A model generated the notes under the pieces. That model was not told where the DNA came from and searched no databases. It saw only the letters and a list, made by a program, of their open reading frames with translations. DNA of 64,000 nucleotides from Escherichia phage KBNP1711, in the sequence record NC_023593.1; one strand, 5' to 3'. The translations under genes were made by a program, and so were the position numbers. This document shows, piece by piece, positions 3,156-57,607 of this stretch; the first letter of the stretch is position 1; every line of letters starts with the position of its first letter.

Positions 3156-3185
3156 TTCAGGGCTGACTAGAAAGGGAGGTGAAAA

Positions 3186-3677: not shown

Positions 3678-3688
3678 AAGGAGTTGTC

Positions 3689-35374: not shown

Positions 35375-35446
35375 TTCACTCTCTCCTGTTTAACACAATA
35401 TTCTTATACTGTATATACATTTGAGAGTGATCATATCTACTACCAA

Positions 35447-36083: not shown

Positions 36084-36283
36084 TATCTGTCAACCGATTC
36101 AGGGACAAACTGCATTACACAGACCTGATTACGAGGAAGGTTTATTTCACAAGCGGCTTTTCTATCAGCAACCTTAGATGACGAGTTAGGGCCAATTTGA
36201 GCCATCATTAATCCCATAGCTAACATGCCGAGGATTACACCAATTGCTAAAGATGCTACAGTTTCTTGTTTCATCTTGATCAC
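36083..36283 (-). CDS. small membrane protein
   Basis: Hydrophobic ASLAIGVILGMLAMGLMMA segment. Confidence 0.35.
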   Translation of the reverse strand: MIKMKQETVASLAIGVILGMLAMGLMMAQIGPNSSSKVADRKAACEINLPRNQVCVMQFVPESVDR

Positions 36284-36813: not shown

Positions 36814-36827
36814 TCTTATTCCTTATG

Positions 36828-38108: not shown

Positions 38109-38657
38109 TTACATTTTCCAATATAAAGATGGGGGGTCATTTGGGTCAAAGTTTGCAATATGGCAAAGATATTTATAAACCTTAACCGTTAAGTTTACGT
38201 CCTGTTCACAATAAGTAAACATGTCCTCTGTAAAGGCATCCCATGCTTCTTCCTGTTCACCGTAATCACCCTTAAGCTCTTCTAAGAACTCACCCCATTG
38301 CTTTAAGCCATGACCTCTTGGGCCATGTCTAGGGTCGCCTTTCGGATACTCAGGACTGTCACCAATACGGTCAGGTTTAAGATACCGACTCAGACATAAA
38401 GTGTCTAGGACGTTGAATTTGTAATCAATCAAATCAGGGTACATCTTCTTCAGAGCACATAAGTCGAAGTCAATAACGTTATGACCTACAACAACATCAG
38501 CCTCTGTAAGTTTCTTGATACCCTCTTCAATCTGGTGAGGGCGAAATCCCCACCGTTCACCAGTTGATATATCGAAGATAAAGATACACCATACGTTTGT
38601 GATATTGTCGTACAGTGCATCACTCTCAATATCAAATGCGTAGACTTTCTTTACCAC
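38109..38657 (-). CDS. 3'-5' exonuclease homologous to the proofreading domain of T7 DNA polymerase, encoded as a separate gene
   Basis: [36 protein letters not shown] align with the Exo I-III motifs of the T7 gp5 N-terminus. Confidence 0.75.
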
Positions 38658-40441: not shown

Positions 40442-40478
40442 GCTCTATCCTCCTTGGATTCTCCTTGAGCAAACTACC

Positions 40479-40688
40479 TTACTTATAAAAACTTCGAATC
40501 ATGTCCCAGATTTCTTCCTGCTGGACCCTAAAGAAAGCTAAACGTGTCGATGTACGTTCGATAAACTCTTCACTATGCTTTTCTCTATCTAGCATACTGA
40601 CAAGCTTTTCGTATTTATTGATCTTCCATCGCATTTTTAAATAGTCTGATTCTAGTGTCCTTAACCTCTGACACTCAATCAAATCCAT
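40479..40688 (-). CDS. hypothetical protein
   Basis: 69-aa ORF. Confidence 0.35.
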   Translation of the reverse strand: MDLIECQRLRTLESDYLKMRWKINKYEKLVSMLDREKHSEEFIERTSTRLAFFRVQQEEIWDMIRSFYK

Positions 40689-41107
40689 CAGTTATCCTCT
40701 GACAGATAAAGAGACCAGTCACCAGATTCAACCAGTTCATCTTGCTCTTCATCAATGTGATAAATCCAAGCAGTGACAGTTTCACCACTATCCAGAACCA
40801 CTTCGATAGGTGTACGCTTGTAGAAAGTGTGTGGGTTGTCATTACCACGATGCCCTTCCAGCATGTCATAAGCGCCCTCAACACCATCCATATCCGTCTT
40901 AAACACTTCAACACGAACAGGTTTACCGTTACTGCTGTGTTCCAGAGAAACACTTGGGAAGTATGAACCACCGTAGCGGTACAGGTTGTAGTTTTCTTTA
41001 GTGAAACCTTCACCAATCGATTCAGCACCTGCACGAGCATTCACTCGGAAGTTAGCCTGACCAGTACGAAGAGAACCATAAGTTGCTACATAAATTACTT
41101 CTGACAT
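40688..41107 (-). CDS. gamma-glutamyl cyclotransferase-like (AIG2/GGCT fold) protein
   Basis: N-terminal VATYGSLRTG motif and length typical of GGCT-like proteins. Confidence 0.45.
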   Translation of the reverse strand: MSEVIYVATYGSLRTGQANFRVNARAGAESIGEGFTKENYNLYRYGGSYFPSVSLEHSSNGKPVRVEVFKTDMDGVEGAYDMLEGHRGNDNPHTFYKRTPIEVVLDSGETVTAWIYHIDEEQDELVESGDWSLYLSEDN

Positions 41108-41178
41108 TTTAAATACCTTTGTTCATTGTTTAGTTAATCCGAACTAGCCTCCTCTTTCGAAGAAGCTAGAGCAGATTG

Positions 41179-41361
41179 CTATGCTGTGAAGTTTTTGATT
41201 ACACCGCAAATAACATCTGTTTCAAACGTACCCACCAGAACATCGTCTCGGTAGAAGTTAATCGCTCTACCGTCTCGGTTAAAGTGATCTGCTTCAATGA
41301 GCATTGACTGTACCTGACCATCTGGAGTGGAGGTTCGAAAGATGACGTTATACTGACTCAT
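41179..41361 (-). CDS. hypothetical protein
   Basis: 60-aa ORF. Confidence 0.3.
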   Translation of the reverse strand: MSQYNVIFRTSTPDGQVQSMLIEADHFNRDGRAINFYRDDVLVGTFETDVICGVIKNFTA

Positions 41362-41600
41362 AAAGAAGTTACTCCCTTATCTTCTTGGGCGATAGAGATG
41401 ATACGACTCACACACTGCATTGAGTACTCATCTCCACGCTTTAGGAACGTTACGATAGCAGAGAATTGATTACCAATCATCCGCTCATTTGTGATACCGA
41501 ACTCTTTGCAGAGTTCTTTCAGTTTGCTACGAGAACCAATAATCAGAGGCTCTTTTTCTTCAGTCATTCCGCGACTAATCAAATCTTCAATAGACAACAT
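41358..41600 (-). CDS. hypothetical protein
   Basis: 80-aa ORF. Confidence 0.35.
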   Translation of the reverse strand: MLSIEDLISRGMTEEKEPLIIGSRSKLKELCKEFGITNERMIGNQFSAIVTFLKRGDEYSMQCVSRIISIAQEDKGVTSL

Positions 41601-41623
41601 AATTCCATTCCTTGGGGGTTTAA

Positions 41624-42841
41624 TTAAAAGTTTACTACTTCACCATTAACGGTAGTTACTGATGCAAGACGACGAACACGACCAATCTGTTCACGACTAA
41701 TTGGAGTGTTCCAACCAGAGCGATAGAAGTTGCGACCGCAGAAGAATACAACAACATTAGAAGCAATCCGTCCGTAGTTACGATCAGGGTGGTTGATATT
41801 CGCTAGGTAATATCCACGGGTCAGGTTTGCATTTTCATTAATGGGACGAGCATTTGGTGCAGTTGTTTCAGCTTGCATCACTTCTTGAACTTCTTCAACA
41901 ACAGGCTCAACTGTAGGAGTATCACCAGCTAAAGCAAAGTTCTCATCAGCAGCCTCTTCTGCATCATCTTCCAGCTCCACAGTTTCCTGAATAACTGGCA
42001 GAGGGTATGCTACACGATACTCAGGGTTTTGACCACGGAGAGACTCAACATACTGCAAGAAGTTGTGCTGGTAAGTTTCCAGAGTCGTACCAGTCAGGCC
42101 CGGAGCGGTGTTAACTTCTAACACCCATGCTTCCTCGCCTTTACTGATAATGTCAACAGCACCAAAGTTAAGACCGAGTGCTTGTACTGCTTTGTGCGCT
42201 TGAATCAGAACCTGATCATTTGGTGAATCATTAAAAGCATTTGAATAAACCCAACCAGTGTGATGATTACGAACATCTTCACGATAGTCAGGGTTATCAC
42301 GATACCCATTACGACGAATCTTCTTCTGTACGTAAGTAATAACACCTTCAAAGACATGAACACGCCATTCACGACGTGGGCCAGTGATTGCTTTCGTGTA
42401 CAGAGGAGCCTCTGCAATACCTTCACGAGTAAGACGAACAGTGATACCTTCACCAGAGTGACCGTTCAGTACACCACGTTCATAAACAATACTATTTCGG
42501 TTCCAGTTCTGTGCTTCTTCACGATTAGTGGTATATTCAACAGTCTTGACTTCCGCAAGACGCATAGTATTGAAAGCTGCAACCTTGTTCGCCGCACGAT
42601 TCAACGCTGCTACGTTGTTCAGGACCGTTGCACCTTCGAAGAAGGATTCTTGATAACGACGGTTTCCGTAGTTGATGATCACATCACCAGAACGAGCACG
42701 GAATCGGCTGGTTCCATCAGACAGAAGAGCCATTGCGTTAGCATTGATTCGGTTGTCACGGAGATGTTGATTCAAGCTGGACACCAGAGCATTAACAGAA
42801 TCAGAAGGGCCATAAGGGAGAACACGGATACGAGTAGTCAT
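41624..42841 (-). CDS. ATP-grasp family ligase
   Basis: EWRVHVF and LGLNFGAVDIISKGEEAWVLEVNTAPGL match the ATP-grasp C-terminal nucleotide-binding motifs. Confidence 0.55.
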   Translation of the reverse strand: MTTRIRVLPYGPSDSVNALVSSLNQHLRDNRINANAMALLSDGTSRFRARSGDVIINYGNRRYQESFFEGATVLNNVAALNRAANKVAAFNTMRLAEVKTVEYTTNREEAQNWNRNSIVYERGVLNGHSGEGITVRLTREGIAEAPLYTKAITGPRREWRVHVFEGVITYVQKKIRRNGYRDNPDYREDVRNHHTGWVYSNAFNDSPNDQVLIQAHKAVQALGLNFGAVDIISKGEEAWVLEVNTAPGLTGTTLETYQHNFLQYVESLRGQNPEYRVAYPLPVIQETVELEDDAEEAADENFALAGDTPTVEPVVEEVQEVMQAETTAPNARPINENANLTRGYYLANINHPDRNYGRIASNVVVFFCGRNFYRSGWNTPISREQIGRVRRLASVTTVNGEVVNF

Positions 42842-42843
42842 TT

Positions 42844-43077
42844 TTAGATACCTTTAAGTTTAAGAATTTCGTTGCGAGTACGTTGGATACGTTCTTCAAG
42901 AGTGTGATAATCAAAGATGCAGATCTCTTCTGCTTCATCAGAAGGTGCATCCATTAAACCCATAGCAATCGGATACACTTTTCGCTGTTCCGTTGTCATG
43001 TTCTGTAGCCGGAGTCGTTGATACTCCAGCAGGGTAATTTTCGGCTTGTTAGTTTCCTTGCTTGACATGAGGCTCAA
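42844..43077 (-). CDS. hypothetical protein
   Basis: 77-aa ORF. Confidence 0.3.
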   Translation of the reverse strand: MSLMSSKETNKPKITLLEYQRLRLQNMTTEQRKVYPIAMGLMDAPSDEAEEICIFDYHTLEERIQRTRNEILKLKGI

Positions 43078-43282
43078 CCTTGATACCTTTCAGTTTCACA
43101 TAGTCAGCCAGCACGTTGTTAATAACTGTTGGGAAAGGAATCTCAACAGGTGCATTAACTAACCCACCAATACCCTCTTGCATCCACTTCTGGATTGCAC
43201 GAAGGTTATCACATCCTGTGCTTGTCATTGGAATACGGCGAGTGGTTACAACGTTATCCAACATCATCTTACGAATTTCCAT
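43049..43282 (-). CDS. hypothetical protein
   Basis: 77-aa ORF. Confidence 0.3.
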   Translation of the reverse strand: MEIRKMMLDNVVTTRRIPMTSTGCDNLRAIQKWMQEGIGGLVNAPVEIPFPTVINNVLADYVKLKGIKVEPHVKQGN

Positions 43283-43292
43283 AATACACCTC

Positions 43293-45311
43293 TTAATTAT
43301 GACCTTTACAGTGCACTGAATCGCACACCACTTGATTGGTATTGTTTAGTGTGCAGAGTTCTGCATCACGCCACGGAATCTTTTTAAAACAGACTGCACA
43401 AAACCCCAAAGTAGACCAGAGGGCTTTTGTGAAGGTTGCTGAACGGTTTCCATCGGAAGAGGCAACTGTTCTGGTAATTGAGACTTTTGACTCACGAAAG
43501 GTTTCCGCTACTGGAGCGGATTCCTCCTTTGGGGTAGTCACTGCAATAGCATAAATACCACCCCAACGCTTCTCAATGTAAGCACCGAATACATCTTCCA
43601 GAGTGATTTCACTCTTACGCTTGGTTGAGGATTCCATGACAACCATGTTGTCCAGAATCTTTTGATCGACACGAAGAGCTACTTCAGGACGTCGAGCACT
43701 TGTTGTATCAACACACTTAGTCCAAACATAACCCTCTTTCAGGGTGACTTGAGTTGCTTGCTTCTTTGCTTTATTAGCACAGATTTTACAAACATCGTCA
43801 CCACGAAGTTTACTGAACTCTTCATCAAATTCAAAGTCAGACTTCACTTCACCGCACACCGAACAAACACCGATAGGAATCTCATCCTCTTCAACGTCTT
43901 CTACTTGCTTCTGGATAGAATCAAAACAAGCTTTATGCCAATATGCTTGGTATGCGAAGATTGCACTTGGGGCTTCTTTCCAGTCGATGTGCTTATCACA
44001 GCCACCACAATCACCATGGGAATGGGCTTCCCAGAACTTACGAGTGATAGTCACCCCATTCTTGCTGACAAAACTATCCTCTGCATCAAAAGGGATATCA
44101 TCATCGAAATCAGCTGTAGTGCTTTCCGGCTCCTTTTTCGACAAGTCAAAGAAGTGACCAGAGATCAACACCAAACGAATCATGCTATTAACTTCAGAAA
44201 TACAGCCAACCGTACCACGGTAAACCATATGCTTATTCTTAAGAGCAGCTTCGTAATCAGTTTGCAGGATGTTATGAACATCACCCTCAATATACTCTTG
44301 AGCTTTGTCATCATAAATATAACCAACCATCTTACCGCGATCGGTATCTTTATAACAAACAAACTCGTGAGGAATAATATCAACCTGCATATCACGACGG
44401 ATATCAACACCTTTGTCAGATGCGATCTTGTTTTGTTTCAAGATTGCTTCACGACGACGTACATCACCTGCGGTTACGCCGGGCTTTCTTTGCTCGTCGC
44501 TGTTCCCGTTTACGTAACTTTTTATCCCGCTTGAGTGATTGTTGCTGTAGCTGTTCGAGTAATAACTTCCCCAACGCGTTGCTACCGTAAAAACCGGGAG
44601 TTCATGTACGACCTCCTCTACCAAAGTCATCTTGTTGTCAGAAACATCAAAGATGTACTCTGTACCGACTTTACACTCAAAGTGCTCATCGATTCGATTC
44701 TTGTGGCTCTTAGAACGCTGAAGAATCCACATCAACATAGCTTCTTCTGAAGCACCAAACCATGAAGTTCCCAGACGGGCCAGATGGAATGGACGCTCAT
44801 CGTTGCGAATGATGTGAAGACGGTTATCACTTGCATCATGCCAGATCAGAGTGAATGCACCATCCAACTTCTGAATAGTCTCTGCTGCACCAATCTTGTT
44901 AATAGAGTGGCAGATGTTCTCACTATCAACCTCAAAAACCTTACTGTCAGGCAGAAGGTCTTGATCAACTAAGGTTCCGTTATGAACCAGAGTGATGTTT
45001 CCGTGAGAGAATGGGTGAGCGTTACGTGAGTTAATAGCACCTTTCGTAGCATGTCGGCTATGACCAACAATCCATGAAGGAGGCACTGTGTAATTAGTAA
45101 GGCCAGTTGTCAGCTCGGTGTACTCTTTCTGTAACATGAAAGCATAGGAAGGTAGTGCTTCTTTGTAAGAGAACACAGATCTTTCGCTTTTACGCTGACC
45201 GAAAATACCAGTTGAGTGTTGACCACGAAATACACCAGCATAAAGAAGCTGGTTGTAAACATCTAAGTCATAACTTGAGAGGCTTCCACCTGCTAATACG
45301 ATACCACAAAT
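43293..45311 (-). CDS. class-II (Ntn) glutamine amidotransferase domain protein with long Cys-rich C-terminal extension
   Basis: Hand translation upstream of track start gives (ATT)-CGIVLAGG...VFRGQHSTGI...HNGTL; SD AGGTGG 8 nt before ATT 45311; track ORF begins at GTG 45176. Confidence 0.6.
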   Translation of the reverse strand: MCGIVLAGGSLSSYDLDVYNQLLYAGVFRGQHSTGIFGQRKSERSVFSYKEALPSYAFMLQKEYTELTTGLTNYTVPPSWIVGHSRHATKGAINSRNAHPFSHGNITLVHNGTLVDQDLLPDSKVFEVDSENICHSINKIGAAETIQKLDGAFTLIWHDASDNRLHIIRNDERPFHLARLGTSWFGASEEAMLMWILQRSKSHKNRIDEHFECKVGTEYIFDVSDNKMTLVEEVVHELPVFTVATRWGSYYSNSYSNNHSSGIKSYVNGNSDEQRKPGVTAGDVRRREAILKQNKIASDKGVDIRRDMQVDIIPHEFVCYKDTDRGKMVGYIYDDKAQEYIEGDVHNILQTDYEAALKNKHMVYRGTVGCISEVNSMIRLVLISGHFFDLSKKEPESTTADFDDDIPFDAEDSFVSKNGVTITRKFWEAHSHGDCGGCDKHIDWKEAPSAIFAYQAYWHKACFDSIQKQVEDVEEDEIPIGVCSVCGEVKSDFEFDEEFSKLRGDDVCKICANKAKKQATQVTLKEGYVWTKCVDTTSARRPEVALRVDQKILDNMVVMESSTKRKSEITLEDVFGAYIEKRWGGIYAIAVTTPKEESAPVAETFRESKVSITRTVASSDGNRSATFTKALWSTLGFCAVCFKKIPWRDAELCTLNNTNQVVCDSVHCKGHN

Positions 45312-45385
45312 TTTCTAATCCACCTGAAGGGTAAACCCTTTCATCTAATTAACCTTTAATTGTGCCCCTTTCGAGGCACCCATTG

Positions 45386-46486
45386 TTACAGCAGTCGTTC
45401 TAACTGAATTTCCAAGTGGTCTGGAATATACTCAGTGACGTTGTTATCAGAGACGCCAGATTCACGCATCATGTTGAGCATGTTACGAATCTGCCCTTCT
45501 GTTGCTTCACGAGTTTCACTAATCTCTGTTTCATACAGAGCCATGATCTCGTTATGAACATCTTGAGCATTACCACGGACATATCCGAGGAAGCCATAGA
45601 AGTCAGACATATCACGAAGGGATACAACTACCGACCCACTACTATCAAGAGTTTGTAAACGAATACGCCCAACCTGACGCACAGATCGGTTACGACAGAA
45701 CAGGATATCACGAGCCAGACGATAACCGCTATCAAGATCTTCGTGTCTTGGGGTGTAGTCCAGAGGTAGGTGCGGGAGCATAGGGTCAAAACGAACCCTG
45801 TTGAGCATCTCAACAAACTCTTCATTGTCCATCTCTGCATTTTCAACTGCTAATTTCTTAAGAACCAAGAAGCGGTTTACCAGATTTAACAGCTGACCTT
45901 TCTTCCACTTAGGCTCTGAGATACGGAACTCAACAGAACCGAACTGAGCCAGAGGGAGTAGGTTGAGTGATGTGTACTTATCCCAACGGTCGACGATATG
46001 TCGGAAGAAGTTCTCACCTTCGTAGTTAAATGCTTCAGAAGCGTTCATTACTTGAGCCTGAACCACTGCAAAAGCAGGACAGAAATTACTACGGTAACGG
46101 TGATAACCAGAGCACTTAAACATCAATGCTTCATAGAAAGTCCACCCAAGGATAACTTTCTTAACGATATTGCTATCAGCATCTCGCATATCCATATGAA
46201 CGTGAGTGGAACATCGCCAAGTCCCTTCTGCTTCGGACTCCATCACTGCCTCACTCAGATTGTTGATAGCGTCAAACAGTTCTACACCATTGTAAGGGCG
46301 AGAACAGACCATTTCACATCCGTTGCGAAGCGAGCCATCCTCTGTACATTCCCACATATCTGCTTCGATATGATCGTCACCTTCAAGCTCCAGCTCAATA
46401 CCAATACCGCATTGGAATGCGATACTCGGATGTGCTTCACTCAGACGATTACTACGGTATCCAAAAGCTTGCGCTACAGTTGTCAT
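45386..46486 (-). CDS. glutamine synthetase-like amidoligase (carboxylate-amine ligase) candidate
   Basis: IGIELELEG near N-terminus and CSTHVHMD resemble the Glu-x-Glu and His-x-His metal motifs of GCS2/amidoligase enzymes. Confidence 0.45.
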   Translation of the reverse strand: MTTVAQAFGYRSNRLSEAHPSIAFQCGIGIELELEGDDHIEADMWECTEDGSLRNGCEMVCSRPYNGVELFDAINNLSEAVMESEAEGTWRCSTHVHMDMRDADSNIVKKVILGWTFYEALMFKCSGYHRYRSNFCPAFAVVQAQVMNASEAFNYEGENFFRHIVDRWDKYTSLNLLPLAQFGSVEFRISEPKWKKGQLLNLVNRFLVLKKLAVENAEMDNEEFVEMLNRVRFDPMLPHLPLDYTPRHEDLDSGYRLARDILFCRNRSVRQVGRIRLQTLDSSGSVVVSLRDMSDFYGFLGYVRGNAQDVHNEIMALYETEISETREATEGQIRNMLNMMRESGVSDNNVTEYIPDHLEIQLERLL

Positions 46487-50417: not shown

Positions 50418-50573
50418 CTACTCCTGTTGTTTACACTCACCAATAACCCACTGATAAGAAGTGGATTGACCTGAAAAGAAACACTGAATAAATCCAGACG
50501 TTCTCTGCGTTACCAGTGCTAGTGCACATATCACTACCGCTGCTGCTAGCAGTTTCATATCTAATTTAGACAT
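50418..50573 (-). CDS. small exported protein
   Basis: Internal ATG 50573; signal-like MKLLAAAVVICALALV. Confidence 0.35.
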   Translation of the reverse strand: MSKLDMKLLAAAVVICALALVTQRTSGFIQCFFSGQSTSYQWVIGECKQQE

Positions 50574-50685
50574 ATTTCCTCTCTTTGAATTTAAAAAAGG
50601 ACTCTCCGAAAAGAGCCAAGCTTTAAATACAAAAAAGATATTACCCAATATCTGTGGATAACCTGCTCTTAAAATATCTATCCGA

Positions 50686-50811: not shown

Positions 50812-51027
50812 CTAAAAATCGCCTGATTTTACAAAATCATCACTAAGGATTTCATCAATTTCTTTGCTGGTTAGGTCTTTTCTGAACCAACAACAAGGAA
50901 CATCCACCCATTGACCAGAATTGTTTTCTACAGAGCATCTGTTTCCTGTCTTACTTTTGCATTTATAAGACTTCCCTTTATCTAGGCGATAATGGATTCT
51001 ATAAACAATTGACACAAGTTCTATCAT
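50812..51027 (-). CDS. small Cys-rich protein
   Basis: Internal ATG 51027; Cys-rich C-terminal half. Confidence 0.35.
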   Translation of the reverse strand: MIELVSIVYRIHYRLDKGKSYKCKSKTGNRCSVENNSGQWVDVPCCWFRKDLTSKEIDEILSDDFVKSGDF

Positions 51028-51028
51028 A

Positions 51029-51271
51029 CTATTTATCCCCACCAAAGGCAAGGTAGGCATCTTTGATTTCAGTAACCTGTGAATCAGGTTTGAATGCAGA
51101 CAAATGCCCTGTGTTCAGATTAACTGCGTTGGCAGGGATGATGCAACCCTCTACTTTAGTGTCAGGGATTTTCATGTAGTAGCTTGAAAAGTGCTCTGCT
51201 GAGAAAACTTCCCCAATAGAGATATCACTAATCTTCGCTAGAACATCCTTAGCTGGTTTCCCTATTTTCAT
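51029..51271 (-). CDS. small protein, paralog family A
   Basis: Shares L..G.VF...F/Y..K...C..L..G with seven other genes. Confidence 0.4.
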   Translation of the reverse strand: MKIGKPAKDVLAKISDISIGEVFSAEHFSSYYMKIPDTKVEGCIIPANAVNLNTGHLSAFKPDSQVTEIKDAYLAFGGDK

Positions 51272-51528
51272 TACTCACCTTTCTTAGCACGATCTTTGGC
51301 AGTTTTGCCAGTGCGGATACGATGGGAAACGTTAACCAGAGTGCCACCTTCAACAATGGTAACGCTCTTGTTCTTGGCAACGTCAAACACAGACTTCTCC
51401 GTGCCACCCAAGCGAATCTGCTTAGGCTCACTGAAGGTTTGTGTGGACTTGGACTGGATGTTGAACGGCTGACGGATTGCATCGATTGCACTTACTTTAC
51501 TCATGGGGGAATAGCTCCTAAAAATCAT
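51271..51528 (-). CDS. hypothetical basic protein
   Basis: 85-aa ORF. Confidence 0.35.
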   Translation of the reverse strand: MIFRSYSPMSKVSAIDAIRQPFNIQSKSTQTFSEPKQIRLGGTEKSVFDVAKNKSVTIVEGGTLVNVSHRIRTGKTAKDRAKKGE

Positions 51529-51737
51529 GACTGCGTAGAGGGAATTCCCTACGCAAAAACGACGCTAAAAGAAGCGTCACAGTAGTTGAAAAGAGGTACA
51601 GAAACAGAGGTTATTTAGCTACCTTTTTCTGACCGTTTACGAACCAGATAATTGAACCGTCGGGCTGTCGTTGACCGAAGCCTTTCATGGTTAGCATGTC
51701 TTCCGAAAACTCTTTAAAAGTAATCACTTGCTTACCC

Positions 51738-51983
51738 TTACATTGGAGTTAATACAATCTCTGCTTTGGCAAACCTCTCGCCAACTTCGAGAGTATCAGC
51801 AACAGGACGAGGCACACCAGTACCCAAACAAACAGCCCTTCGATACCCTCCAGTCACAGGCATCATCAAATAGATGACCTGATTATCATCTTCTTTTAAA
51901 GTGAAGATGTCAGCGATTGATAAGTCTTTAACAAAGAGTTTCTTTTCTTCTTTGTTGTGAACCTTAATATGTATTGTGCTCAC
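51738..51983 (-). CDS. small protein, paralog family A
   Basis: Family motif. Confidence 0.4.
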   Translation of the reverse strand: MSTIHIKVHNKEEKKLFVKDLSIADIFTLKEDDNQVIYLMMPVTGGYRRAVCLGTGVPRPVADTLEVGERFAKAEIVLTPM

Positions 51984-51985
51984 AC

Positions 51986-52231
51986 CTACTCCTGAACCAC
52001 AGACATACGAATCATTTCCACCTGAGTGTCACCTTTCATAACACCCAGCACACCAGTCAGAAGGTTAACTGTAGTAATCCAACCCTCTTCTACAGAGATC
52101 TTGTTGGACACATTATTAACACGCATGTAATACTGAGGTGATGCTGTACCCCGCTGAACTACGAAAGGGTTTCCGGGGATGATAGTATCCAGCGGATGTG
52201 TGTTATCTTTGACCTTGGGGATAATTTTCAT
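51986..52231 (-). CDS. small protein, paralog family A (divergent)
   Basis: Family motif, weaker. Confidence 0.35.
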   Translation of the reverse strand: MKIIPKVKDNTHPLDTIIPGNPFVVQRGTASPQYYMRVNNVSNKISVEEGWITTVNLLTGVLGVMKGDTQVEMIRMSVVQE

Positions 52232-52239
52232 CTTGATTC

Positions 52240-52551
52240 CTATTTAAGTTTGAGGCTAATGTTGAGGTGCATACATGCCCTGTTCTGTACAGCAGCATAA
52301 CTTCTACCGAGCATGTCAGCCATTCTCTGAATAGACATGAACCCAGCATTACGGATAAGGAACTGATCTTCTTCTTTAGACCACTTAACTCGGATTACAG
52401 CTCTAGAGATACCGAACTTAGTGCAAGCTGTATTAACTGCATTCTCCGTTACATTCATAATCTGAGCAACTTCTTGAACGGAGTACTCTTTGATTAGTCT
52501 CCGAAGATTTTCAATCTGCATCGGAGTCCATATAGTTCTTCGTGCTTTCAT
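52240..52551 (-). CDS. DNA-binding protein with two tandem helix-turn-helix (Myb/SANT-like) repeats
   Basis: Two ~45-aa repeats each starting with W and containing helix-turn-helix-like segments. Confidence 0.45.
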   Translation of the reverse strand: MKARRTIWTPMQIENLRRLIKEYSVQEVAQIMNVTENAVNTACTKFGISRAVIRVKWSKEEDQFLIRNAGFMSIQRMADMLGRSYAAVQNRACMHLNISLKLK

Positions 52552-52982
52552 ACATCCTCCAATTAAACATTTATATAAGACTTGCTTAGATAAAGATTCA
52601 ATAAAATAGGGGGAGGGGACGAATCCTCCCTTATCCTATTAATTAATGTTGCATGTAAGATCTAACAATCGGTTGCCTTTGTAGGAATAAGCATTATGCT
52701 AATCCAGCACTAAACTCCCGCCCCCTTAGTGGGCTGGGTTATTAAAGGGTAACGCCCTTATGGGCTAGTTACGTGAATGTTAGTTTGATAGGAGATCTGA
52801 AGTCCTATCTCAAAGGACTCTCGTAAGAATCCTTCACGATATTACTTATTCATTTCTCGTCGGCTATCTCTCCAAGCCAACCAAGTGTAGGTTTTCAGCT
52901 CTTCAAAGTCTTCTGGAGAGAATAGATATTCTTTGAAGGTGTCACTAAACCACTCTAAAAATTCTTCAGTCATAATAACCTC

Positions 52983-53156
52983 TTAACAATACTGATCACA
53001 TGGCTGATCACCACATGTCTTACAGATCACTGGAGAGTAACTACAGGCAGGATATACTGACACACCATCAAACGTTTCACACCCACAATCAGGGCATGTA
53101 CCATTGGATTCCATGTCATCGTCATCATACACTTCTCCGCCACCATAACAGCTCAT
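52983..53156 (-). CDS. small Cys-rich zinc-binding-type protein (57 aa)
   Basis: AAGGAG RBS 5 nt before ATG; CPDCGC...CKTCGDQPC; + strand ORF 53000..53185 is judged its shadow. Confidence 0.4.
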   Translation of the reverse strand: MSCYGGGEVYDDDDMESNGTCPDCGCETFDGVSVYPACSYSPVICKTCGDQPCDQYC

Positions 53157-53165
53157 ATGAACTCC

Positions 53166-53387
53166 TTAGTAGACCAAACCTATAGCCTTTGCATCAGGCT
53201 GAGGGACTACTTTTGCACTAGGGCGATAGCCATCCACTGAACCATTCCAAAGATTGACACAGGTGATATACCCATCGCTCAAGTAGTCTGTTTTAATCCA
53301 GAAGTGTTTATCATGACCAAAAATACTTCCGTTTGGCAGCGTGGACAGTTCAACAGTTTTAAGGGATTGTTTAGAATCTAATTTCAT
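53166..53387 (-). CDS. small protein, paralog family A (tandem duplicate)
   Basis: About 50 percent identical by eye to 53397..53618. Confidence 0.5.
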   Translation of the reverse strand: MKLDSKQSLKTVELSTLPNGSIFGHDKHFWIKTDYLSDGYITCVNLWNGSVDGYRPSAKVVPQPDAKAIGLVY

Positions 53388-53396
53388 ATAAGTTCC

Positions 53397-53618
53397 TTAA
53401 TATACCAAACCTACAACCTTTGCATTAGGTTGAGGGGTTACTTCAGCGGATGGAGAAAAACCATCAACAACACCGTTGCAGATATTGATGCAGGTGATAT
53501 ATCCTCCAACCTCTTGATTTCCTTTAATCCAAAAACCGTTATCATGTCTAAAAGCACTCCCACTAAGAAGTCTAGACAAAGGAACTACCGGCAATGTTTG
53601 CTTGGCTTCAACTAACAT
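53397..53618 (-). CDS. small protein, paralog family A (tandem duplicate)
   Basis: As above. Confidence 0.5.
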   Translation of the reverse strand: MLVEAKQTLPVVPLSRLLSGSAFRHDNGFWIKGNQEVGGYITCINICNGVVDGFSPSAEVTPQPNAKVVGLVY

Positions 53619-53627
53619 AACAACTCC

Positions 53628-53876
53628 TTAATTATCGTAGCATGTATCCCAATACATATAGTTAACGTATGTTCTCGGTTTGAGTCCGTACATGATGAAG
53701 TGAGTCTTCTTAATTCTTTCCTTCAGGGTATAATAAAGGCCATCACTGAAGTTACCAATCTTTACTTGGAAGCGTAAAGATCGAGCATCCATTCGAAGCA
53801 TAGAGATTAGCTGTACTCTACTACCCCCAGCCATCTCTTCAAGAAGCTTCTTTGTATTCCAATAATGAGCTGTCAT
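53628..53876 (-). CDS. hypothetical protein
   Basis: Internal Met of track ORF 53628..53933. Confidence 0.35.
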   Translation of the reverse strand: MTAHYWNTKKLLEEMAGGSRVQLISMLRMDARSLRFQVKIGNFSDGLYYTLKERIKKTHFIMYGLKPRTYVNYMYWDTCYDN

Positions 53877-53877
53877 A

Positions 53878-54183
53878 TTACCACTCCTTACCGGTCGTAA
53901 TCGTAGAGCCACCACACCACAACGCTGTATCAATCACAACATTGTCTGGCGTAGACTTCTCTTCGTTGATAGACGGGTTGGCATTAGAACAGGTTGCTCC
54001 GTTCCAGCGCATATCAATCTCACCAGAAGGAACCTTCTCACCTTTATGCCAGCGAGATACACAAATACCGTCCACTGCTACCGCACACCATCCATCAGGA
54101 CGGCTCTGTACGCAGCCTGTAAGGGCCACACAGACAAGGAAGATACAGATTAAGGATATTACACCACCCCAACTCATAAGCAC
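53878..54183 (-). CDS. lipoprotein (Cys-rich)
   Basis: Signal peptide with lipobox LTGC (ICIFLVCVALTGC). Confidence 0.5.
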   Translation of the reverse strand: MLMSWGGVISLICIFLVCVALTGCVQSRPDGWCAVAVDGICVSRWHKGEKVPSGEIDMRWNGATCSNANPSINEEKSTPDNVVIDTALWCGGSTITTGKEW

Positions 54184-54196
54184 CTCCTAATTAATT

Positions 54197-54271
54197 TGGC
54201 GTCCCCACTAGGACTCGAACCTAGAATGGATTTTTAGAAGAAATCTGTTATATCCTTTTAACTATAGGGAC
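54197..54271 (-). tRNA. tRNA-Arg (anticodon UCU)
   Basis: Hand-folded cloverleaf: 7-bp acceptor stem, D stem GTTA/TAAC, anticodon stem GATTT/AAATC with loop CTTCTAA, T arm CTAGG-TTCGAGT-CCTAG, encoded CCA. Confidence 0.8.
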
Positions 54272-54280
54272 TTATTTTAT

Positions 54281-54445
54281 TTAGATCATATCTCGCTTGG
54301 TGATATGACCACATATTTTACATCGAAGTATGTAACGAGTTCCTGTGTCTTCTAGTTTACCGAACTCATCATACACATTTAAACGAATCTCTTTTATAGT
54401 TTCCCATTCATGGAGATGGAAGAGATATTTAAACCACTTGAACAT
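54281..54445 (-). CDS. small zinc-finger protein
   Basis: Internal Met of track ORF 54281..54619; CKICGH. Confidence 0.3.
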   Translation of the reverse strand: MFKWFKYLFHLHEWETIKEIRLNVYDEFGKLEDTGTRYILRCKICGHITKRDMI

Positions 54446-54452
54446 AATAACC

Positions 54453-54704
54453 TCAAGCACAAGCAGGGAGTGTGATGATTTTATACTGACCTTCGAACTC
54501 TCCAAATAAACCCAAGAATGTAGGACTGTAAGTACCAGTACAAACAAACTCATCAAACAGGGCGTTATAGCTAGGCTTAATCTTCCAAGCCCATACATAA
54601 CCCATCTTGTCAATTGCAATGTAACGAGCGTTCAGAGGAACAGTCATCATCACATCATCAACTTCGATCACTTTAGTGATTGGTGCAGCTTGGAAGTTTT
54701 TCAT
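54453..54704 (-). CDS. hypothetical protein
   Basis: 83-aa ORF. Confidence 0.4.
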   Translation of the reverse strand: MKNFQAAPITKVIEVDDVMMTVPLNARYIAIDKMGYVWAWKIKPSYNALFDEFVCTGTYSPTFLGLFGEFEGQYKIITLPACA

Positions 54705-54925
54705 CCTACTCTCCTAACATTTAGGGTAGCTTGATAAAATTTGACAGGGCAAGTCCTATCAAATGTAAATCTTGTTTCAGGATTCTTTATACAGATAGCA
54801 TGTCTGTGCATAACCTTCATGTATAAAGGAGGTTTTGTATCCCCGTCCACTTCTAGAGAGAACACATCACCATTACGTAGACTACCAAAAGTATTATCTT
54901 TAGGTTCAGAATGGACAATAATCAT
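54701..54925 (-). CDS. small protein, paralog family A
   Basis: Family motif (LRNGDVFSL...LYMKV). Confidence 0.4.
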   Translation of the reverse strand: MIIVHSEPKDNTFGSLRNGDVFSLEVDGDTKPPLYMKVMHRHAICIKNPETRFTFDRTCPVKFYQATLNVRRVG

Positions 54926-55107
54926 ACTTTACCTTTAATGAAAATATCATTACCACAGACATAGCATGAACGAACAACAGTAGCGCCACGCTGAACGATA
55001 CGAACCTCTTCCTTAACCAGATTAACACGAGCACCACAGCAAGGAGAGTTAACATAAGAGTAACCAGCTTGTGTATTCTTGATTGTTTGCTTAGACATTT
55101 GATTCAA
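54922..55107 (-). CDS. small zinc-ribbon protein
   Basis: PCCGARV...CYVCG. Confidence 0.4.
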   Translation of the reverse strand: MNQMSKQTIKNTQAGYSYVNSPCCGARVNLVKEEVRIVQRGATVVRSCYVCGNDIFIKGKV

Positions 55108-55447
55108 GATCTCTCAGTTGTTTAGCCAATTGTTCGCACTCGTTGATGCAGAACTCTTCTGTTCTTGGAACCCCATTAGGGTTGAACCGTGTCTTATCAC
55201 CTGCATGGGCACAATCAAATCCGACTGTATTTAAACCACCCATTTCTTCGAGAGAATCCTGCCACGTAACACCGCCATGGACGTTGACATAACAAACCTC
55301 TTCATCGTCCCCATTATATCCGGTGAAGTTTTTACTGCTCAGAGTGTCTGGTAACTCTACATACCCACATAAGTGTGAGTTGTTCATGTTTATAATCACA
55401 GCACAAAGACCTGATTTAGTTACCCAATCTTTAACTATTCGTCTCAT
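55091..55447 (-). CDS. hypothetical protein
   Basis: ATG 55447 preceded by AAGAGGTG RBS. Confidence 0.45.
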   Translation of the reverse strand: MRRIVKDWVTKSGLCAVIINMNNSHLCGYVELPDTLSSKNFTGYNGDDEEVCYVNVHGGVTWQDSLEEMGGLNTVGFDCAHAGDKTRFNPNGVPRTEEFCINECEQLAKQLRDLESNV

Positions 55448-55531
55448 ATAAGCACCTCTTGTTAGTTTAAGTAAGAGTTGTCCCTTAATTAAAACAACAA
55501 AGGCCACCCGATTGGGCAGCCTTTTTACTTA

Positions 55532-55672
55532 TTAACTGTTATATGTCCAATTACCTTGCTTGTTACGAATAGCCGACATAGCATGAAGCCAGAAGCCTTC
55601 CAGTTTCAGAGCACCGTTAGCTACTACATCCATACGTTCAGGGCGGTTCATACGTTTGGTTGATACTTTCAT
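55532..55672 (-). CDS. small basic protein (46 aa)
   Basis: Hand-translated ORF in a region with no track ORF; weak SD. Confidence 0.25.
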   Translation of the reverse strand: MKVSTKRMNRPERMDVVANGALKLEGFWLHAMSAIRNKQGNWTYNS

Positions 55673-55919
55673 ACCTATCTCTCTTTGTTAGTGGAGGCAT
55701 TATTGCCAGTTGATATAAGGGATAGCCCTAGTCAGTAGACTAATCCTGACCGCGTACTCATTGCCGACCTTCTCTGCCTAAGAGTTCAGGTTCTAGAGCT
55801 ATCTCTTATTCCAACTGGTGAAGACTCCCTACCCCTAGGAAGTCTCCTGAATCCCAAACCAATATGTACCCCTACATATTAGAAAGTCTTTCGAAAATTA
55901 ACAGGTTTTAGTCTAACAC

Positions 55920-56028
55920 CGGATGTTCGAGCAAGCTCTCCCTAGCGGTGTGGCATATGCCTGAGTTAATAATTTAATGAGGAACACCCTCACATAGCCC
56001 TCTGATGGATACAAGGGCTATAAGTCGG
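55920..56028. repeat. intergenic element copy 2 (CGGATGTTCGAG ... CTCTCCCTAGC ... hairpin CACATAGCCC...GGGCTATAAG)
   Basis: Matches copy at 50686-50802. Confidence 0.5.
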
Positions 56029-56030
56029 TG

Positions 56031-56249
56031 TTACTTTTGGGATAAACACAGATCGGGACGTGGCATAACAGTGGTTGATAGACCGAAGACTGCAACAGAG
56101 CCACTGTTCAGATCAGCGGCCTTACACAAACCGTCAGGAGTTTTATCTTCTAGCATCAGCCAGAAACGTCTATCGTAAGAGAAAACATCACCACCTTTAA
56201 CATCTTCTGCATTTGCATATTTAGGATAATCAACTACTTTAATTTCCAT
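56031..56249 (-). CDS. small protein, paralog family A
   Basis: Family motif (VKGGDVFSYDRRFWLM). Confidence 0.4.
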   Translation of the reverse strand: MEIKVVDYPKYANAEDVKGGDVFSYDRRFWLMLEDKTPDGLCKAADLNSGSVAVFGLSTTVMPRPDLCLSQK

Positions 56250-56507
56250 CTACTTACCTTTATTGGTAATTACTGCATCTGGGATAAGGATTACAGGAAG
56301 ACTCGAATCAAGCTTCATAACCTGATTAGTACTTAAACTAAGTACAACTGTTCCAGAATCTTTCTTGTTTGACTCTGTTACGTGTGGAGTAAATAAACCA
56401 ACAACCAAATAGTGACCGAAGCGTGTAGCTTTAACTTGGAATACATCGCCAAGCTTTAAATCACCAACTGTAAGATCTGGGTCTTTTAGTTCAAGATCAA
56501 TCTTCAT
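56250..56507 (-). CDS. small protein, paralog family A
   Basis: Family motif (LKLGDVFQV). Confidence 0.4.
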   Translation of the reverse strand: MKIDLELKDPDLTVGDLKLGDVFQVKATRFGHYLVVGLFTPHVTESNKKDSGTVVLSLSTNQVMKLDSSLPVILIPDAVITNKGK

Positions 56508-56757
56508 CTTTAGCCTCGATGTTAGTTATGTGGAGATCATTACGAACTTGGCAGACTTCATCACGCTTAATAGGGACTAGCTTTCCAGTGACAACATCAA
56601 CGCAGTTCACGTAATTGTCTGCGTATAAAGAGTCGGTTCGAATATAAAGGAACCCTTTAGACTCAAAGAGAACCCCCGGCTTCATATTATTTAAGCGAAG
56701 CATTGTACGGTTAGATTTAATATTAACCTTCACTATTGATCTCCTGTTGCTTGGCAA
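56497..56757 (-). CDS. small protein, paralog family A (divergent)
   Basis: Family motif (MKPGVLFESKGFLYIR). Confidence 0.35.
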   Translation of the reverse strand: MPSNRRSIVKVNIKSNRTMLRLNNMKPGVLFESKGFLYIRTDSLYADNYVNCVDVVTGKLVPIKRDEVCQVRNDLHITNIEAKDED

Positions 56758-57028
56758 TAGCTACTCGCAAGTCTTCATTAGCACGAGCAAGGCGTTTAAC
56801 TTCATGATCAAGGCTGATAAGGCGCTTATTTCTATCCTCAACCTGTTCAACCAGATCAAAAAGCTCAAATCTCACCTTTTCTGTATACATCTCCTCTACT
56901 TTAACCAGACTGTTATAGCGACGTTCCCAGCTGGCTGCTTTGTTTCTTAGGATAATAAAACCCAACACAGCAACAGTTAACAGCAATACAAGTAAGAATT
57001 TATATACTTCAATACTCATCTTATTCAC
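56723..57028 (-). CDS. type II membrane protein with coiled-coil ectodomain
   Basis: One TM (FLLVLLLTVAVLGFIIL) then heptad-rich charged helix; follows the SleB-like hydrolase gene. Confidence 0.4.
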   Translation of the reverse strand: MNKMSIEVYKFLLVLLLTVAVLGFIILRNKAASWERRYNSLVKVEEMYTEKVRFELFDLVEQVEDRNKRLISLDHEVKRLARANEDLRVAIAKQQEINSEG

Positions 57029-57217: not shown

Positions 57218-57607
57218 TTATTCATGAGCATCATTATTGAACACTAAATCACCACAATACATCGGATTGGTATACCACTTTGGCACCCCCTCGCTCTTAC
57301 TCTGAAAGTAGGTTCCACTATACAGAGGAACATAATTCTTCTTGAGAGCACGTCTAGCAAGCTGCTCGCTTTCTCTTATGGCTTGTTTAGTCATAGGATT
57401 ATCATCACGAATCAGCTTTACATAACGTTTATAAGGTTTCTCCTGTTTTAATAGTACCGGAATCCACTCAAACTGGTTCTTTTGTCTTATCACCTGTTCA
57501 GCGGTCAGTTTTCGTTGGGCCATTCTATTTATCACGGTATCCGCAACTAAAGCCTTACATGCGGTTGGCTGATTCCCTGCCTCATAATAAATAGTCAATG
57601 TCAACAT
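57218..57607 (-). CDS. cell wall hydrolase (SleB/Hydrolase_2-like)
   Basis: IYYEAGNQPTACKALVADTVINRMAQ...QFEW resembles the SleB-type hydrolase core. Confidence 0.55.
   Translation of the reverse strand: MLTLTIYYEAGNQPTACKALVADTVINRMAQRKLTAEQVIRQKNQFEWIPVLLKQEKPYKRYVKLIRDDNPMTKQAIRESEQLARRALKKNYVPLYSGTYFQSKSEGVPKWYTNPMYCGDLVFNNDAHE

What the first reader, a model, noticed from the sequence alone, without database searches (positions are those of the whole stretch)
51029..56757. Expanded family of at least eight small paralogous proteins
ORFs 51029-51271, 51738-51983, 51986-52231, 53166-53387, 53397-53618, 54701-54925, 56031-56249, 56250-56507 and 56497-56757 (68-86 aa each) share a motif by eye: L..G-[DS]-[VI]-F early, then an aromatic [FY]-[WYL]-[IML]-K segment, a Cys, and L..G. 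One tandem pair (53166-53387 and 53397-53618) is about half identical. Multi-copy small-protein families in phage early regions are often host-takeover or anti-defence factors that diversify by duplication, and this family has no obvious annotation.
Basis: seen in the sequence. Interest (0 to 1): 0.55.

Follow-up and report, generated by a model that had tools for sequence, protein, structure and literature searches.

The report
Nine-copy small beta-barrel phage protein family
The early region of this E. coli phage (KBNP1711, a phiEco32-like podovirus) really does encode nine diverged copies of one 72-85-residue protein, and they belong to a very large, uncharacterised family of phage mini-barrel proteins that recurs in multi-copy arrays in unrelated phages and whose function nobody knows.

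Summary
All nine ORFs exist on the minus strand, each has a Shine-Dalgarno-like motif, and all are exact matches to "hypothetical proteins" of Escherichia phage KBNP1711. They are homologous despite 12-56% pairwise identity. A profile built only from 119 non-Kuravirus relatives finds exactly these nine among 421 window ORFs (E 6e-19 to 1e-6; the next ORF has E 0.9).

An exhaustive profile search finds at least 2,673 clusters (50% identity) of relatives. Most are single-domain proteins of 65-80 aa; some are 2-5x tandem fusions. There is no Pfam, NCBIfam or PADLOC match and no solved structure. PHROGs splits the family into about nine "unknown function" families.

AlphaFold models (pLDDT 82 and 84) give an SH3/Tudor/KOW-like small beta-barrel. 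Conserved positions are core hydrophobics and turn glycines; the other positions are hypervariable.

Copy number is 8-11 in Kuravirus and Nieuwekanaalvirus, 4 in SU7 and 1 in N4, PaP3 and LUZ24. Arrays of 3-5 copies occur in unrelated metagenomic phages. Orthologues are under purifying selection (dN/dS 0.04-0.33). LUZ24 gp7, a member, was non-toxic in a published screen.

The most likely role, inferred and untested, is a repertoire of non-enzymatic binding modules for host or defence targets.

The parts
51029..51271 (-). Family copy 1 (80 aa; = KBNP1711 CH16_gp095). Present in XT18 and EP335; absent at this slot in phiEco32, MN05, NJ01 and ES17.
   Evidence: HMM E 1.5e-16 with the non-Kuravirus profile. 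Leave-one-out E 7.6e-13. Exact database match. Presence/absence.
51738..51983 (-). Family copy 2 (81 aa; gp098), GTG start. The weakest member by within-window evidence.
   Evidence: Leave-one-out E 0.045. Reached by 1 of 500 shuffles. E 3.6e-8 with the independent family profile. Orthologues 79-92% identical with dN/dS 0.09-0.22.
51986..52231 (-). Family copy 3 (81 aa; gp099), tandem with copy 2. This cluster holds 2 copies here and 3-5 in relatives (phiEco32 gp95-98).
   Evidence: E 1.4e-13. Copy counts.
53166..53387 (-). Family copy 4 (73 aa; gp103; phiEco32 gp104 orthologue). Modelled structure: five-strand small beta-barrel.
53397..53618 (-). Family copy 5 (73 aa; gp104), 56% identical to copy 4. 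In single-copy relatives the slot holds either the copy-4 type or the copy-5 type (MN05); this phage and EP335 carry two copies.
   Evidence: BLASTP 56% identity, E 9e-27. Orthology table. Copy counts.
54701..54925 (-). Family copy 6 (74 aa; gp109; phiEco32 gp109 orthologue). The most divergent copy (pI 9.1). Modelled as the same all-beta barrel.
   Evidence: E 1e-6. Leave-one-out E 1.5e-3, rank 1. AF2 pLDDT 84.4, pTM 0.72, with the same order of strands.
56031..56249 (-). Family copy 7 (72 aa; gp113; phiEco32 gp113 orthologue), acidic (pI 4.9).
   Evidence: E 1.4e-13. pI.
56250..56507 (-). Family copy 8 (85 aa; gp114), with a longer loop after the Y-Y-M-K strand.
   Evidence: E 2e-7. Alignments.
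56497..56733 (-). Family copy 9 (78 aa from GTG 56733; gp115). The 56757 TTG start given in the finding is probably too long. This cluster has 3 copies here, 4 in ES17 and 5 in NJ01.
   Evidence: SD-like motif before 56733 but not before 56757. The 78-aa form is an exact match to KBNP1711 gp115. E 1.2e-15. Copy counts.

Best explanation
The nine ORFs are real genes of phage KBNP1711. They are a lineage-specific, ancient expansion of a very widespread and uncharacterised family of phage proteins. Each protein is a single SH3/Tudor/KOW-like small beta-barrel of about 70-80 residues.

The genes sit in five clusters of the leftward early region, which is transcribed by host RNA polymerase. The barrel core and turn residues are conserved across the whole family. 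The residues between them on the strands and the loops differ freely in sequence and length.

My best reading is that the barrel is a non-enzymatic binding scaffold. On this reading the array gives the phage a repertoire of early-expressed binders, each recognising a different host or host-defence macromolecule. They would be accessory host-modulation or counter-defence factors that are individually dispensable and not generally toxic. Repertoires would be reshuffled between related phages by recombination, gain and loss.

What is shown: gene reality, homology, fold class (predicted), family size, recurrent multi-copy arrays, purifying selection, and absence of any catalytic-looking conserved polar motif.

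What is inferred: the binding function, the nature of the targets, and early expression in this particular phage.
For: Homology and gene reality.

Fold:
- Two independent AF2 models have pLDDT 82 and 84.
- Foldseek against BFVD matches small proteins with no informative annotation (nearly all 'uncharacterised') in N4 (gp21), PaP3 (ORF65), N4-like Pseudomonas phages, Vequintavirinae-type phages and others.

Scaffold-plus-variable-surface pattern, from a 127-sequence alignment:
- The low-entropy columns are hydrophobic residues or Gly (M1, I3, L17, G20, V22, F23, Y29, Y30, M31, A43, V44, L46, G49, F54, V60, A66, L68, I71).
- The intervening positions and the 34-41 loop are near maximal entropy and carry indels.
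- No conserved His/Cys/Asp/Ser constellation is present.

Family size and recurrent arrays:
- 2,673 clusters at 50% identity.
- Natural 2-5x tandem fusions.
- Arrays of 3, 5 and 4 copies in unrelated metagenomic phage contigs L004, L006 and L009.
- 4-11 copies across Gordonclarkvirinae, with slot-wise gain and loss, allele replacement and a frameshifted copy.

Other support:
- Early-class position by synteny with phiEco32, with strong sigma70-like promoters upstream on the same strand.
- Near-neutral or acidic pI argues for protein rather than nucleic-acid ligands.
- Family member LUZ24 gp7 is not growth-inhibitory.
Against: - No binding partner is known for any member. No experiment addresses function beyond one negative toxicity and biofilm test.
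- dN/dS gives no sign of an arms race at whole-gene level.
- No known anti-defence or defence-related gene was recognised among the neighbours.
- The consensus sequence found nothing in plasmids.
- Similarity to characterised barrels is generic (Foldseek against PDB, best E 0.02), so the fold does not point to a target.
- Surface exposure of the variable positions was judged from the strand pattern, not from coordinates.
- Expression timing is taken from relatives, not measured for this phage.
Confidence: 0.4

Rival explanations
1. The barrels act on RNA or the translation machinery, in the manner of the 'translation-protein SH3-like' or KOW/Sm-type small barrels. For example they could act as RNA chaperones or as modulators of ribosomes or EF-P-dependent translation early in infection.
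For: The closest solved folds are eIF5A/EF-P domain I and the uL2 C-terminal SH3 domain. Three of 127 family members give sub-threshold hits to Pfam EFP_N (E about 0.02).
Against: - The similarities are weak (Foldseek E at least 0.02, TM about 0.5).
- Every Pfam hit is below the curated cut-off.
- The family is acidic to neutral (median pI about 5). Only one semi-conserved basic residue (K/R32) was seen, and no EF-P-type basic loop was apparent.
- Nine diverged copies are hard to explain for a single conserved RNA or ribosome target.
Confidence: 0.15
2. They are Tudor-like RNA-polymerase-binding factors, analogous to the RNAP-interacting barrels of CarD, Mfd and UvrD. On this reading they help the phage redirect or protect host RNAP during the early-to-middle switch.
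Against: - These hits are not distinguished from dozens of other SH3-like barrels at the same Z.
- The family also occurs in N4 (its own RNAPs), in a temperate siphovirus contig and in phages of low-GC hosts.
- A member was non-toxic in P. aeruginosa.
- This is really a special case of the main explanation with one named target.
Confidence: 0.1
3. They are oligomeric 'sponges' or antitoxin-like neutralisers. They would sequester small immune signalling molecules (as Tad or Acb proteins do) or neutralise toxin-antitoxin or abortive-infection toxins (the VapX antitoxin has a similar barrel).
Against: - No conserved polar pocket residues across the family.
- No toxin gene is consistently adjacent.
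- Known sponges are normally single-copy.
- No sequence relation to any Pfam family.
Confidence: 0.08
4. The resemblance is a chance similarity among short ORFs, or the ORFs are not genes.
For: Pairwise BLAST detects only three of 36 pairs. One copy (51738-51983) is marginal with within-window evidence alone.
Against: - The independent family profile finds all nine at E no worse than 1e-6, and nothing else in the window.
- SD motifs precede every start.
- Orthologues in many phages have dN/dS of 0.04-0.33.
- Confident AF2 models give one shared fold.
Confidence: 0.01

Closest known systems
PHROG families phrog_6570, 7832, 16423, 7431, 12612, 10911, 9955, 8365 and 34455 (all 'unknown function'); orthologues phiEco32 gp95-98, gp104, gp109 and gp113-115
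   Same: The nine copies hit these PHROGs directly, and different copies cross-hit the same PHROGs. The phiEco32 genes are positional orthologues.
   Different: PHROGs treats them as separate families with no function. Here they are shown to be one family with one fold. I found no paper that describes the paralogy.
SH3/Tudor-like small beta-barrel clusters of phage proteins in the Viral AlphaFold Database (PMC12487901)
   Same: [quoted passage not shown] The predicted fold here is of that type.
   Different: I could not check whether this family is one of those clusters. The survey passages I read assign them no function, and I saw no mention of tandem arrays.
N4 gp21, PaP3 ORF65 and LUZ24 gp7
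   Same: These are single-copy members in early or left-end regions of unrelated podoviruses. LUZ24 gp7 was expressed alone in P. aeruginosa and did not inhibit growth or biofilm.
   Different: They share 17-26% identity with the modelled copy 4 in Foldseek alignments. They are single-copy rather than a nine-copy repertoire. No target or phenotype is known.
EF-P/eIF5A domain I, uL2 C-terminal SH3, KOW, Tudor, and the CarD/UvrD RNAP-interacting barrels
   Different: There is no significant sequence relation. The Foldseek E-values are not significant. The family is acidic rather than basic, and I did not recognise the defining motifs of those families.
Multi-copy accessory or anti-defence gene arrays of phages in general (for example anti-CRISPR loci and T-even internal-protein or accessory clusters)
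   Same: Small early genes, variable copy number between close relatives, and mosaic exchange.
   Different: This comparison rests on general knowledge only. No member of this family has a demonstrated anti-defence activity, and no known anti-defence gene was recognised next to the copies.

Membership tests
The uncharacterised phage mini-barrel family itself (PHROG 6570/7832/16423/7431/12612... set) | Significant profile match over the full length (about 70 positions) to a model built from independent members | tested here: met
   All nine copies score E 6e-19 to 1e-6 with a profile of 119 non-Kuravirus members. PHROG cross-hits support this.
The uncharacterised phage mini-barrel family itself | Single-domain size of 65-85 aa with the MK[IV] N-terminus, G-x-V-F, aromatic-aromatic-aliphatic-K/R, and V-N-L-x-T/N-G turns | tested here: met
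   Alignments and column statistics. Individual copies deviate at single positions: A for G in copy 2, and no T/N-G turn in copy 6.
SH3-like / small beta-barrel fold class | Five-strand, strongly bent antiparallel barrel | tested here: met
EF-P / eIF5A N-terminal KOW-like domain (Pfam EFP_N) | Pfam model match above the gathering score | tested here: not met
   No hit for the nine copies at E up to 1. Three of 127 family members hit at E about 0.02 and 15 bits, against a cut-off of 23. The best Foldseek E is 0.02.
Tudor domains | Aromatic cage that binds methylated Lys/Arg | not testable with these tools
   Conserved aromatics exist (F23, Y29, Y30, F54).
WYL / Sm-like ligand-sensing barrels (Pfam WYL, WYL_2) | Pfam model match | tested here: not met
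   No WYL-family hit among the nine copies. None appears among the 25 most frequently hit families for the 127 members.
Known anti-phage defence components (PADLOC) | Match to any PADLOC model | tested here: not met
   No family hit at E up to 1 for any of the nine copies.
Characterised anti-defence proteins (Ocr, ArdA, Tad, Acb, Acr and others) | Sequence or structure match to a characterised anti-defence family | tested here: inconclusive
   No Pfam hit to those families that Pfam holds, and no PDB sequence hit. A dedicated anti-defence library was not available.
VapX-type antitoxins | Adjacent cognate toxin gene (VapD-like) and specific similarity | tested here: not met

The most novel reading that the evidence does not exclude
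These mini-barrels are a phage counterpart of an antibody-like scaffold. One rigid SH3/Tudor-like core would be reused thousands of times with different surfaces. Tandem arrays such as the nine copies here would encode repertoires of binders that each neutralise a different host immunity or stress-response protein. If so, one of the largest 'dark' phage protein families would be a general counter-defence toolkit, and Kuraviruses, which infect E. coli and are now in the BASEL collection, would be the model in which to show it.
Probability: 0.2. Interest if true: 0.8.

Novelty: new member of a known kind. Interest (0 to 1): 0.5.

Why it matters
The genes themselves are already deposited as hypothetical proteins of KBNP1711 and of more than 100 related phages. 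Three points appear to be unreported.

First, about nine separate 'unknown' PHROG families are one family with one predicted fold.

Second, that family is very large: at least 2,673 clusters at 50% identity, with no Pfam model, no solved structure and no known function.

Third, it is repeatedly amplified into arrays in unrelated phages, with 8-11 copies in Kuravirus-type coliphages.

A recent structural survey singled out SH3/Tudor-like small barrels as the largest phage-only fold clusters without saying what they do. This locus offers an E. coli-tractable place to ask that question by array deletions, pull-downs and defence-panel plating. If the barrels turn out to be diversified binders of host or defence proteins, this would annotate a noticeable fraction of phage 'dark matter' and provide a natural small binding scaffold. 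If they are ordinary dispensable accessory proteins, the result is still a useful family definition.

Tried and rejected
- Pfam, NCBIfam and PADLOC scans of the nine copies, and a Pfam scan of 127 family members, gave nothing usable. The only signal was sub-threshold EFP_N in 3 of 127.
- PDB sequence searches with narrow and broad profiles found nothing meaningful.
- Foldseek against AFDB50 was unavailable on the machine.
- The word-indexed homologue search returned mostly or only Kuravirus orthologues, even with the broad alignment. It gave no domain-fusion information.
- tblastn of the family consensus against plasmids found no match.
- tblastn of one metagenomic member against phages found no match.
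- The lead that PaP3 gp70.1, an RpoS-binding early protein, might be a member was rejected. It is a 130-aa ORF on the opposite strand and does not match the profile. PaP3's member is ORF65.
- The lead that the [FY][WY][ILM] segment is a WYL motif got no support from Pfam.
- The UniRef label 'Cyclophilin TM1367-like' on one orthologue has no support from Pfam.
- The two primary phiEco32 papers (PMC2587145, PMC3275717) are not held, so I could not check whether they mention the paralogy.
- A search for whole-gene positive selection found none.
- No tenth copy was found in the window.


Full report
**What the window is.** The 5.8 kb region matches the right-hand part of phiEco32-like podoviruses (Gordonclarkvirinae, genus Kuravirus) at about 88-92% nucleotide identity. 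All nine proteins in the finding are exact matches to 'hypothetical proteins' CH16_gp095, 098, 099, 103, 104, 109, 113, 114 and 115 of Escherichia phage KBNP1711. The genes lie on the minus strand. GC skew changes sign near 19-20 kb, which fits a rightward late module followed by leftward middle and early genes. Published work on phiEco32, YF01 and 7-11 places this right-hand cluster in the early, host-sigma70-dependent class and describes it as mostly unknown genes. On the same strand upstream there are strong sigma70-like sites at 61682-61654 (11 of 12 matches), 61634-61605 and 61050-61022. Terminator-like hairpins lie at 57682-57663, 55524-55499 and 51580-51531. These sites are consensus matches only.

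**Checking the observation.** The nine ORFs exist as stated. Each is preceded by an AGGAG/AAGGA/GAGG-type motif. For the last copy, the supported start is GTG 56733 (78 aa) rather than TTG 56757.

- Pairwise BLAST sees only three of 36 pairs, including the 56%-identical tandem pair 53166/53397. The median identity is 21%. The question is therefore whether profiles support homology, and they do.
- Leave-one-out HMMs rank the omitted copy first among 421 window ORFs for eight of nine (E 4e-18 to 1.5e-3). The copy at 51738-51983 is marginal (E 0.045).
- Eight of nine beat all 500 composition-preserving shuffles.
- A profile built solely from 119 relatives outside the Kuravirus group finds all nine at E 6e-19 to 1e-6. 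The next-best ORF in the window has E 0.92.
There is no tenth copy in the window.
- The motif description is partly right. F of G-x-V-F is invariant. The aromatic-aromatic-aliphatic-K/R strand and the N-L-x-T/N-G turn are family features.
- The Cys is not a family feature. The proteins are not basic: pI is 4.9-9.1, and the family median is about 5.

**How big the family is.** An exhaustive HMMER search of 1.84 billion representative proteins with a 38-sequence profile gave 2,673 representatives (50%-identity clusters) at E of 1e-3 or better.

- Most are 65-80 aa single-domain proteins beginning MK[IV].
- Some are natural tandem fusions of two to five units: P0093 (two units), P0224 (three), P0130 (four).
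- One is a chromosomal Tenacibaculum protein with an SprT-like metalloprotease domain followed by five units.
- None of the nine copies, and none of 127 diverse members, matches a Pfam family at a meaningful level. NCBIfam and PADLOC also give nothing.
- PHROGs splits the family into about nine families, all 'unknown function', with extensive cross-hits.
- No relative has a solved structure.

**Fold.** AlphaFold2 models were made of copy 4 (pLDDT 81.6, pTM 0.67) and of the most divergent copy 6 (pLDDT 84.4, pTM 0.72). Both give the same all-beta arrangement: an N-terminal strand or hairpin, one helical turn, then five strands.

- Foldseek against the PDB ranks eIF5A and EF-P first, but at E of 0.02 or worse.
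- Foldseek against predicted viral structures finds small proteins with no informative annotation, nearly all labelled uncharacterised. They come from N4 (gp21), PaP3 (ORF65), N4-like Pseudomonas phages, Proteus and Klebsiella phages of the Vequintavirinae type, and Vibrio, Yersinia and Erwinia phages among others.
- The fold class is clear, but it does not point to a particular function.
- A 2025 survey of viral AlphaFold models reported that SH3/Tudor-like small barrels form the largest bacterial-virus-only structural clusters. I could not check whether this family is one of them.

**Anatomy of conservation.** In a 127-sequence alignment, the low-entropy columns are hydrophobic residues or glycines: M1, I3, F/L14, L17, G20, V22, F23, Y/F29, Y/W30, M/I31, A/C43, V44, L46, G49, F54, V60, A66, L68 and I71.

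- The only semi-conserved polar positions are K2, D21, K/R32, T33, N42, N45 and T/N48.
- The alternating strand positions and the loop at 34-41 are close to maximal entropy, and the loop varies in length between paralogues.
- There is no constellation of conserved catalytic-type residues.
- I read this as a rigid scaffold with a free surface. This is an inference, because I could not compute solvent exposure from the model.

**Distribution and dynamics.** I scanned fetched loci with the family HMM.

| Phage or contig | Copies |
|---|---|
| This window (KBNP1711) | 9 |
| phiEco32 (gp95-98, 104, 109, 113-115; gp98 matches only in its N-terminal half) | 9 |
| XT18 | 9 plus one frameshifted copy |
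| MN05 | 8 |
| NJ01 | 10 |
| ES17 | 9 |
| EP335 (Nieuwekanaalvirus) | 11 |
| SU7 (Suseptimavirus), in the 12 kb fetched | 4 |
| N4 (first 18 kb) | 1 |
| PaP3 | 1 |
| LUZ24 gp7 (first 5.8 kb fetched) | 1 |
| Proteus phage Mydo (40 kb fetched) | 1 |

- Variation is slot-wise. The gp95-98 cluster has 2 copies here and 3-5 elsewhere. The gp113-115 cluster has 3 here and 4-5 elsewhere. Copy 1 is present in only some phages.
- Copies 4 and 5 behave as alternative alleles in single-copy phages and are both present here.
- Outside this group, a temperate siphovirus-like metagenomic contig carries three tandem copies and a variant of it carries five. Another phage contig carries four. Others carry one.
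- The GC content of these contigs (0.33-0.46) suggests a wide host range.
- Orthologue pairs have dN/dS of 0.04-0.33, indistinguishable from neighbouring non-family early genes (0.02-0.39, with one outlier of 0.78).
- The same gene can be about 98% identical to one relative and about 56% to another. This indicates exchange of diverged alleles by recombination.
- The copies are therefore old, individually maintained by selection, and reassorted. They are not recent, fast-diverging duplicates.

**Experimental evidence from the literature.** Thirteen early LUZ24 proteins, gp7 among them (77 aa, listed in Table S2), were expressed singly in P. aeruginosa. [quoted passage not shown] LUZ24 gp7 matches the family profile at E 3e-9. 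So the one member that has been tested is not a host-killing protein. I found no paper that describes the paralogy or a function. The two primary phiEco32 papers were not available.

**Most likely mechanism.** I commit to the following reading, with about 40% confidence. The proteins are non-enzymatic binding modules, and the array is a repertoire of early-expressed binders for different host or host-defence macromolecules. They would be accessory factors that are individually dispensable and non-toxic.

The grounds for this reading are:
- the scaffold-plus-variable-surface pattern;
- the absence of catalytic signatures;
- the acidic to neutral charge, which disfavours nucleic-acid binding;
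- the early-region position;
- recurrent multi-copy arrays and natural tandem fusions;
- slot-wise gain, loss and allele exchange between close relatives;
- the negative toxicity result.

Rivals are a role on RNA or the translation machinery (closest folds EF-P/eIF5A and uL2; about 15%), RNAP binding in the manner of the CarD/UvrD/Mfd barrels (about 10%; really a special case of the main reading), and small-molecule sponges or antitoxin-like neutralisers (about 8%). Chance similarity is excluded. The remaining probability is for something not considered here.

**Comparison with known families.** By sequence, the family is the PHROG set named above and nothing else. By fold, it is an SH3/Tudor/KOW-like small barrel. 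It fails the Pfam membership tests for EFP_N and WYL, and shows no relation to PADLOC models. A Tudor-type aromatic cage could not be tested.

**Novelty and score.** The genes are already in databases as hypothetical proteins, and the general kind (small, multi-copy, unknown early phage genes; SH3-like phage barrels) is known. I therefore rate this a new member of a known kind. The added value is the unification of several 'unknown' PHROGs into one very large family, the predicted fold, the recurrent-array pattern, and an E. coli-tractable locus in which to find the function. Interest is 0.5. It is a good candidate for experimental follow-up, but nothing here shows an unusual mechanism.

Noticed in passing
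window 52983-53156 (-): A 57-aa Cys-rich ORF (MSCYGGGEVYDDDDMESNGTCPDCGCETFDG...CKTCGDQPCDQYC) with paired CxxC motifs lies immediately upstream of family copy 4. It looks like a small zinc-ribbon protein with an acidic N-terminus. It is conserved in relatives (89-98% identity, dN/dS 0.02-0.09) and matches phrog_13157, unknown function.
   Followed up: partly
window 54197-54271 (-): A tRNA-Arg (anticodon TCT) sits inside the early region between family clusters, at the same place as in phiEco32, MN05, EP335 and SU7.
   Followed up: partly
window 57218-57607 (-): A 129-aa protein with a Pfam Hydrolase_2 (SleB-like cell-wall hydrolase) domain is encoded in the early region, far from the late and lysis module. 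This is an odd place for a peptidoglycan hydrolase.
   Followed up: partly
window 52240-52551 (-): A 103-aa HTH protein (Pfam Sigma70_r4_2, E 3e-7; PHROG 'transcriptional regulator, D5-like') lies between family clusters. It is 98-99% identical to four relatives but only 63% identical to phiEco32, another sign of allele exchange.
   Followed up: partly
window 56723-57028 (-): A 101-aa coiled-coil protein is annotated 'DNA helicase' in relatives and in PHROGs (phrog_12154). It is far too small to be a helicase and its only Pfam match is weak, to a coiled-coil DUF. This is probably a propagated misannotation.
   Followed up: partly
L002 (phage XT18) 4197-4465: A family copy is split by a frameshift into an N-terminal-half ORF (4268-4465) and a C-terminal-half ORF (4197-4328). 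This suggests ongoing decay and turnover of copies. phiEco32 gp98 and its orthologues match the family only in their N-terminal half.
   Followed up: partly
L007 3583-5019 / L008 6001-7437 (Tenacibaculum MAG, protein P0091): A chromosomal 478-aa protein has an N-terminal SprT-like zinc-metalloprotease domain followed by five tandem copies of the same mini-barrel. It lies between a short-chain dehydrogenase gene and a mannose-1-phosphate guanylyltransferase-like gene. It is the only fusion to a recognisable domain seen among the best 150 hits.
   Followed up: partly
L019 (PaP3) 35103-39596 and 40028-45416; L020 (LUZ24) 998-4142: Bruynogheviruses share with Kuraviruses the amidoligase / COOH-NH2 ligase / large-unknown gene block followed by a run of small early ORFs that includes one family member. 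This hints at a common ancestry for the early and middle regions of these otherwise different podoviruses.
   Followed up: no
L021/L022 1-16432: A 143-aa relative, of which only the N-terminal ~70 residues match the family profile locally, lies in a run of small genes on contigs of 40 kb and 187 kb. Nearby genes include a reverse transcriptase (RVT_1), DUF932, DUF2786/DUF7168 and a GmrSD_N-domain protein.
   Followed up: no
window 51249-51491 (-), 51322-51585 (+), 53430-53615 (+), 54741-54938 (+) and similar: Many ORFs of 40-110 aa overlap the real genes in other frames or on the plus strand. They have no homologue support and are best regarded as spurious. The ORFs at 50812-51060 and 50418-50648 (-) are unannotated in the closest relative and of uncertain status.
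   Followed up: no
cluster 2: UniRef names the XT18 orthologue of family copy 2 'Cyclophilin TM1367-like domain-containing protein'. Pfam gives no support for this, and it looks like an automatic superfamily-level label.
   Followed up: partly
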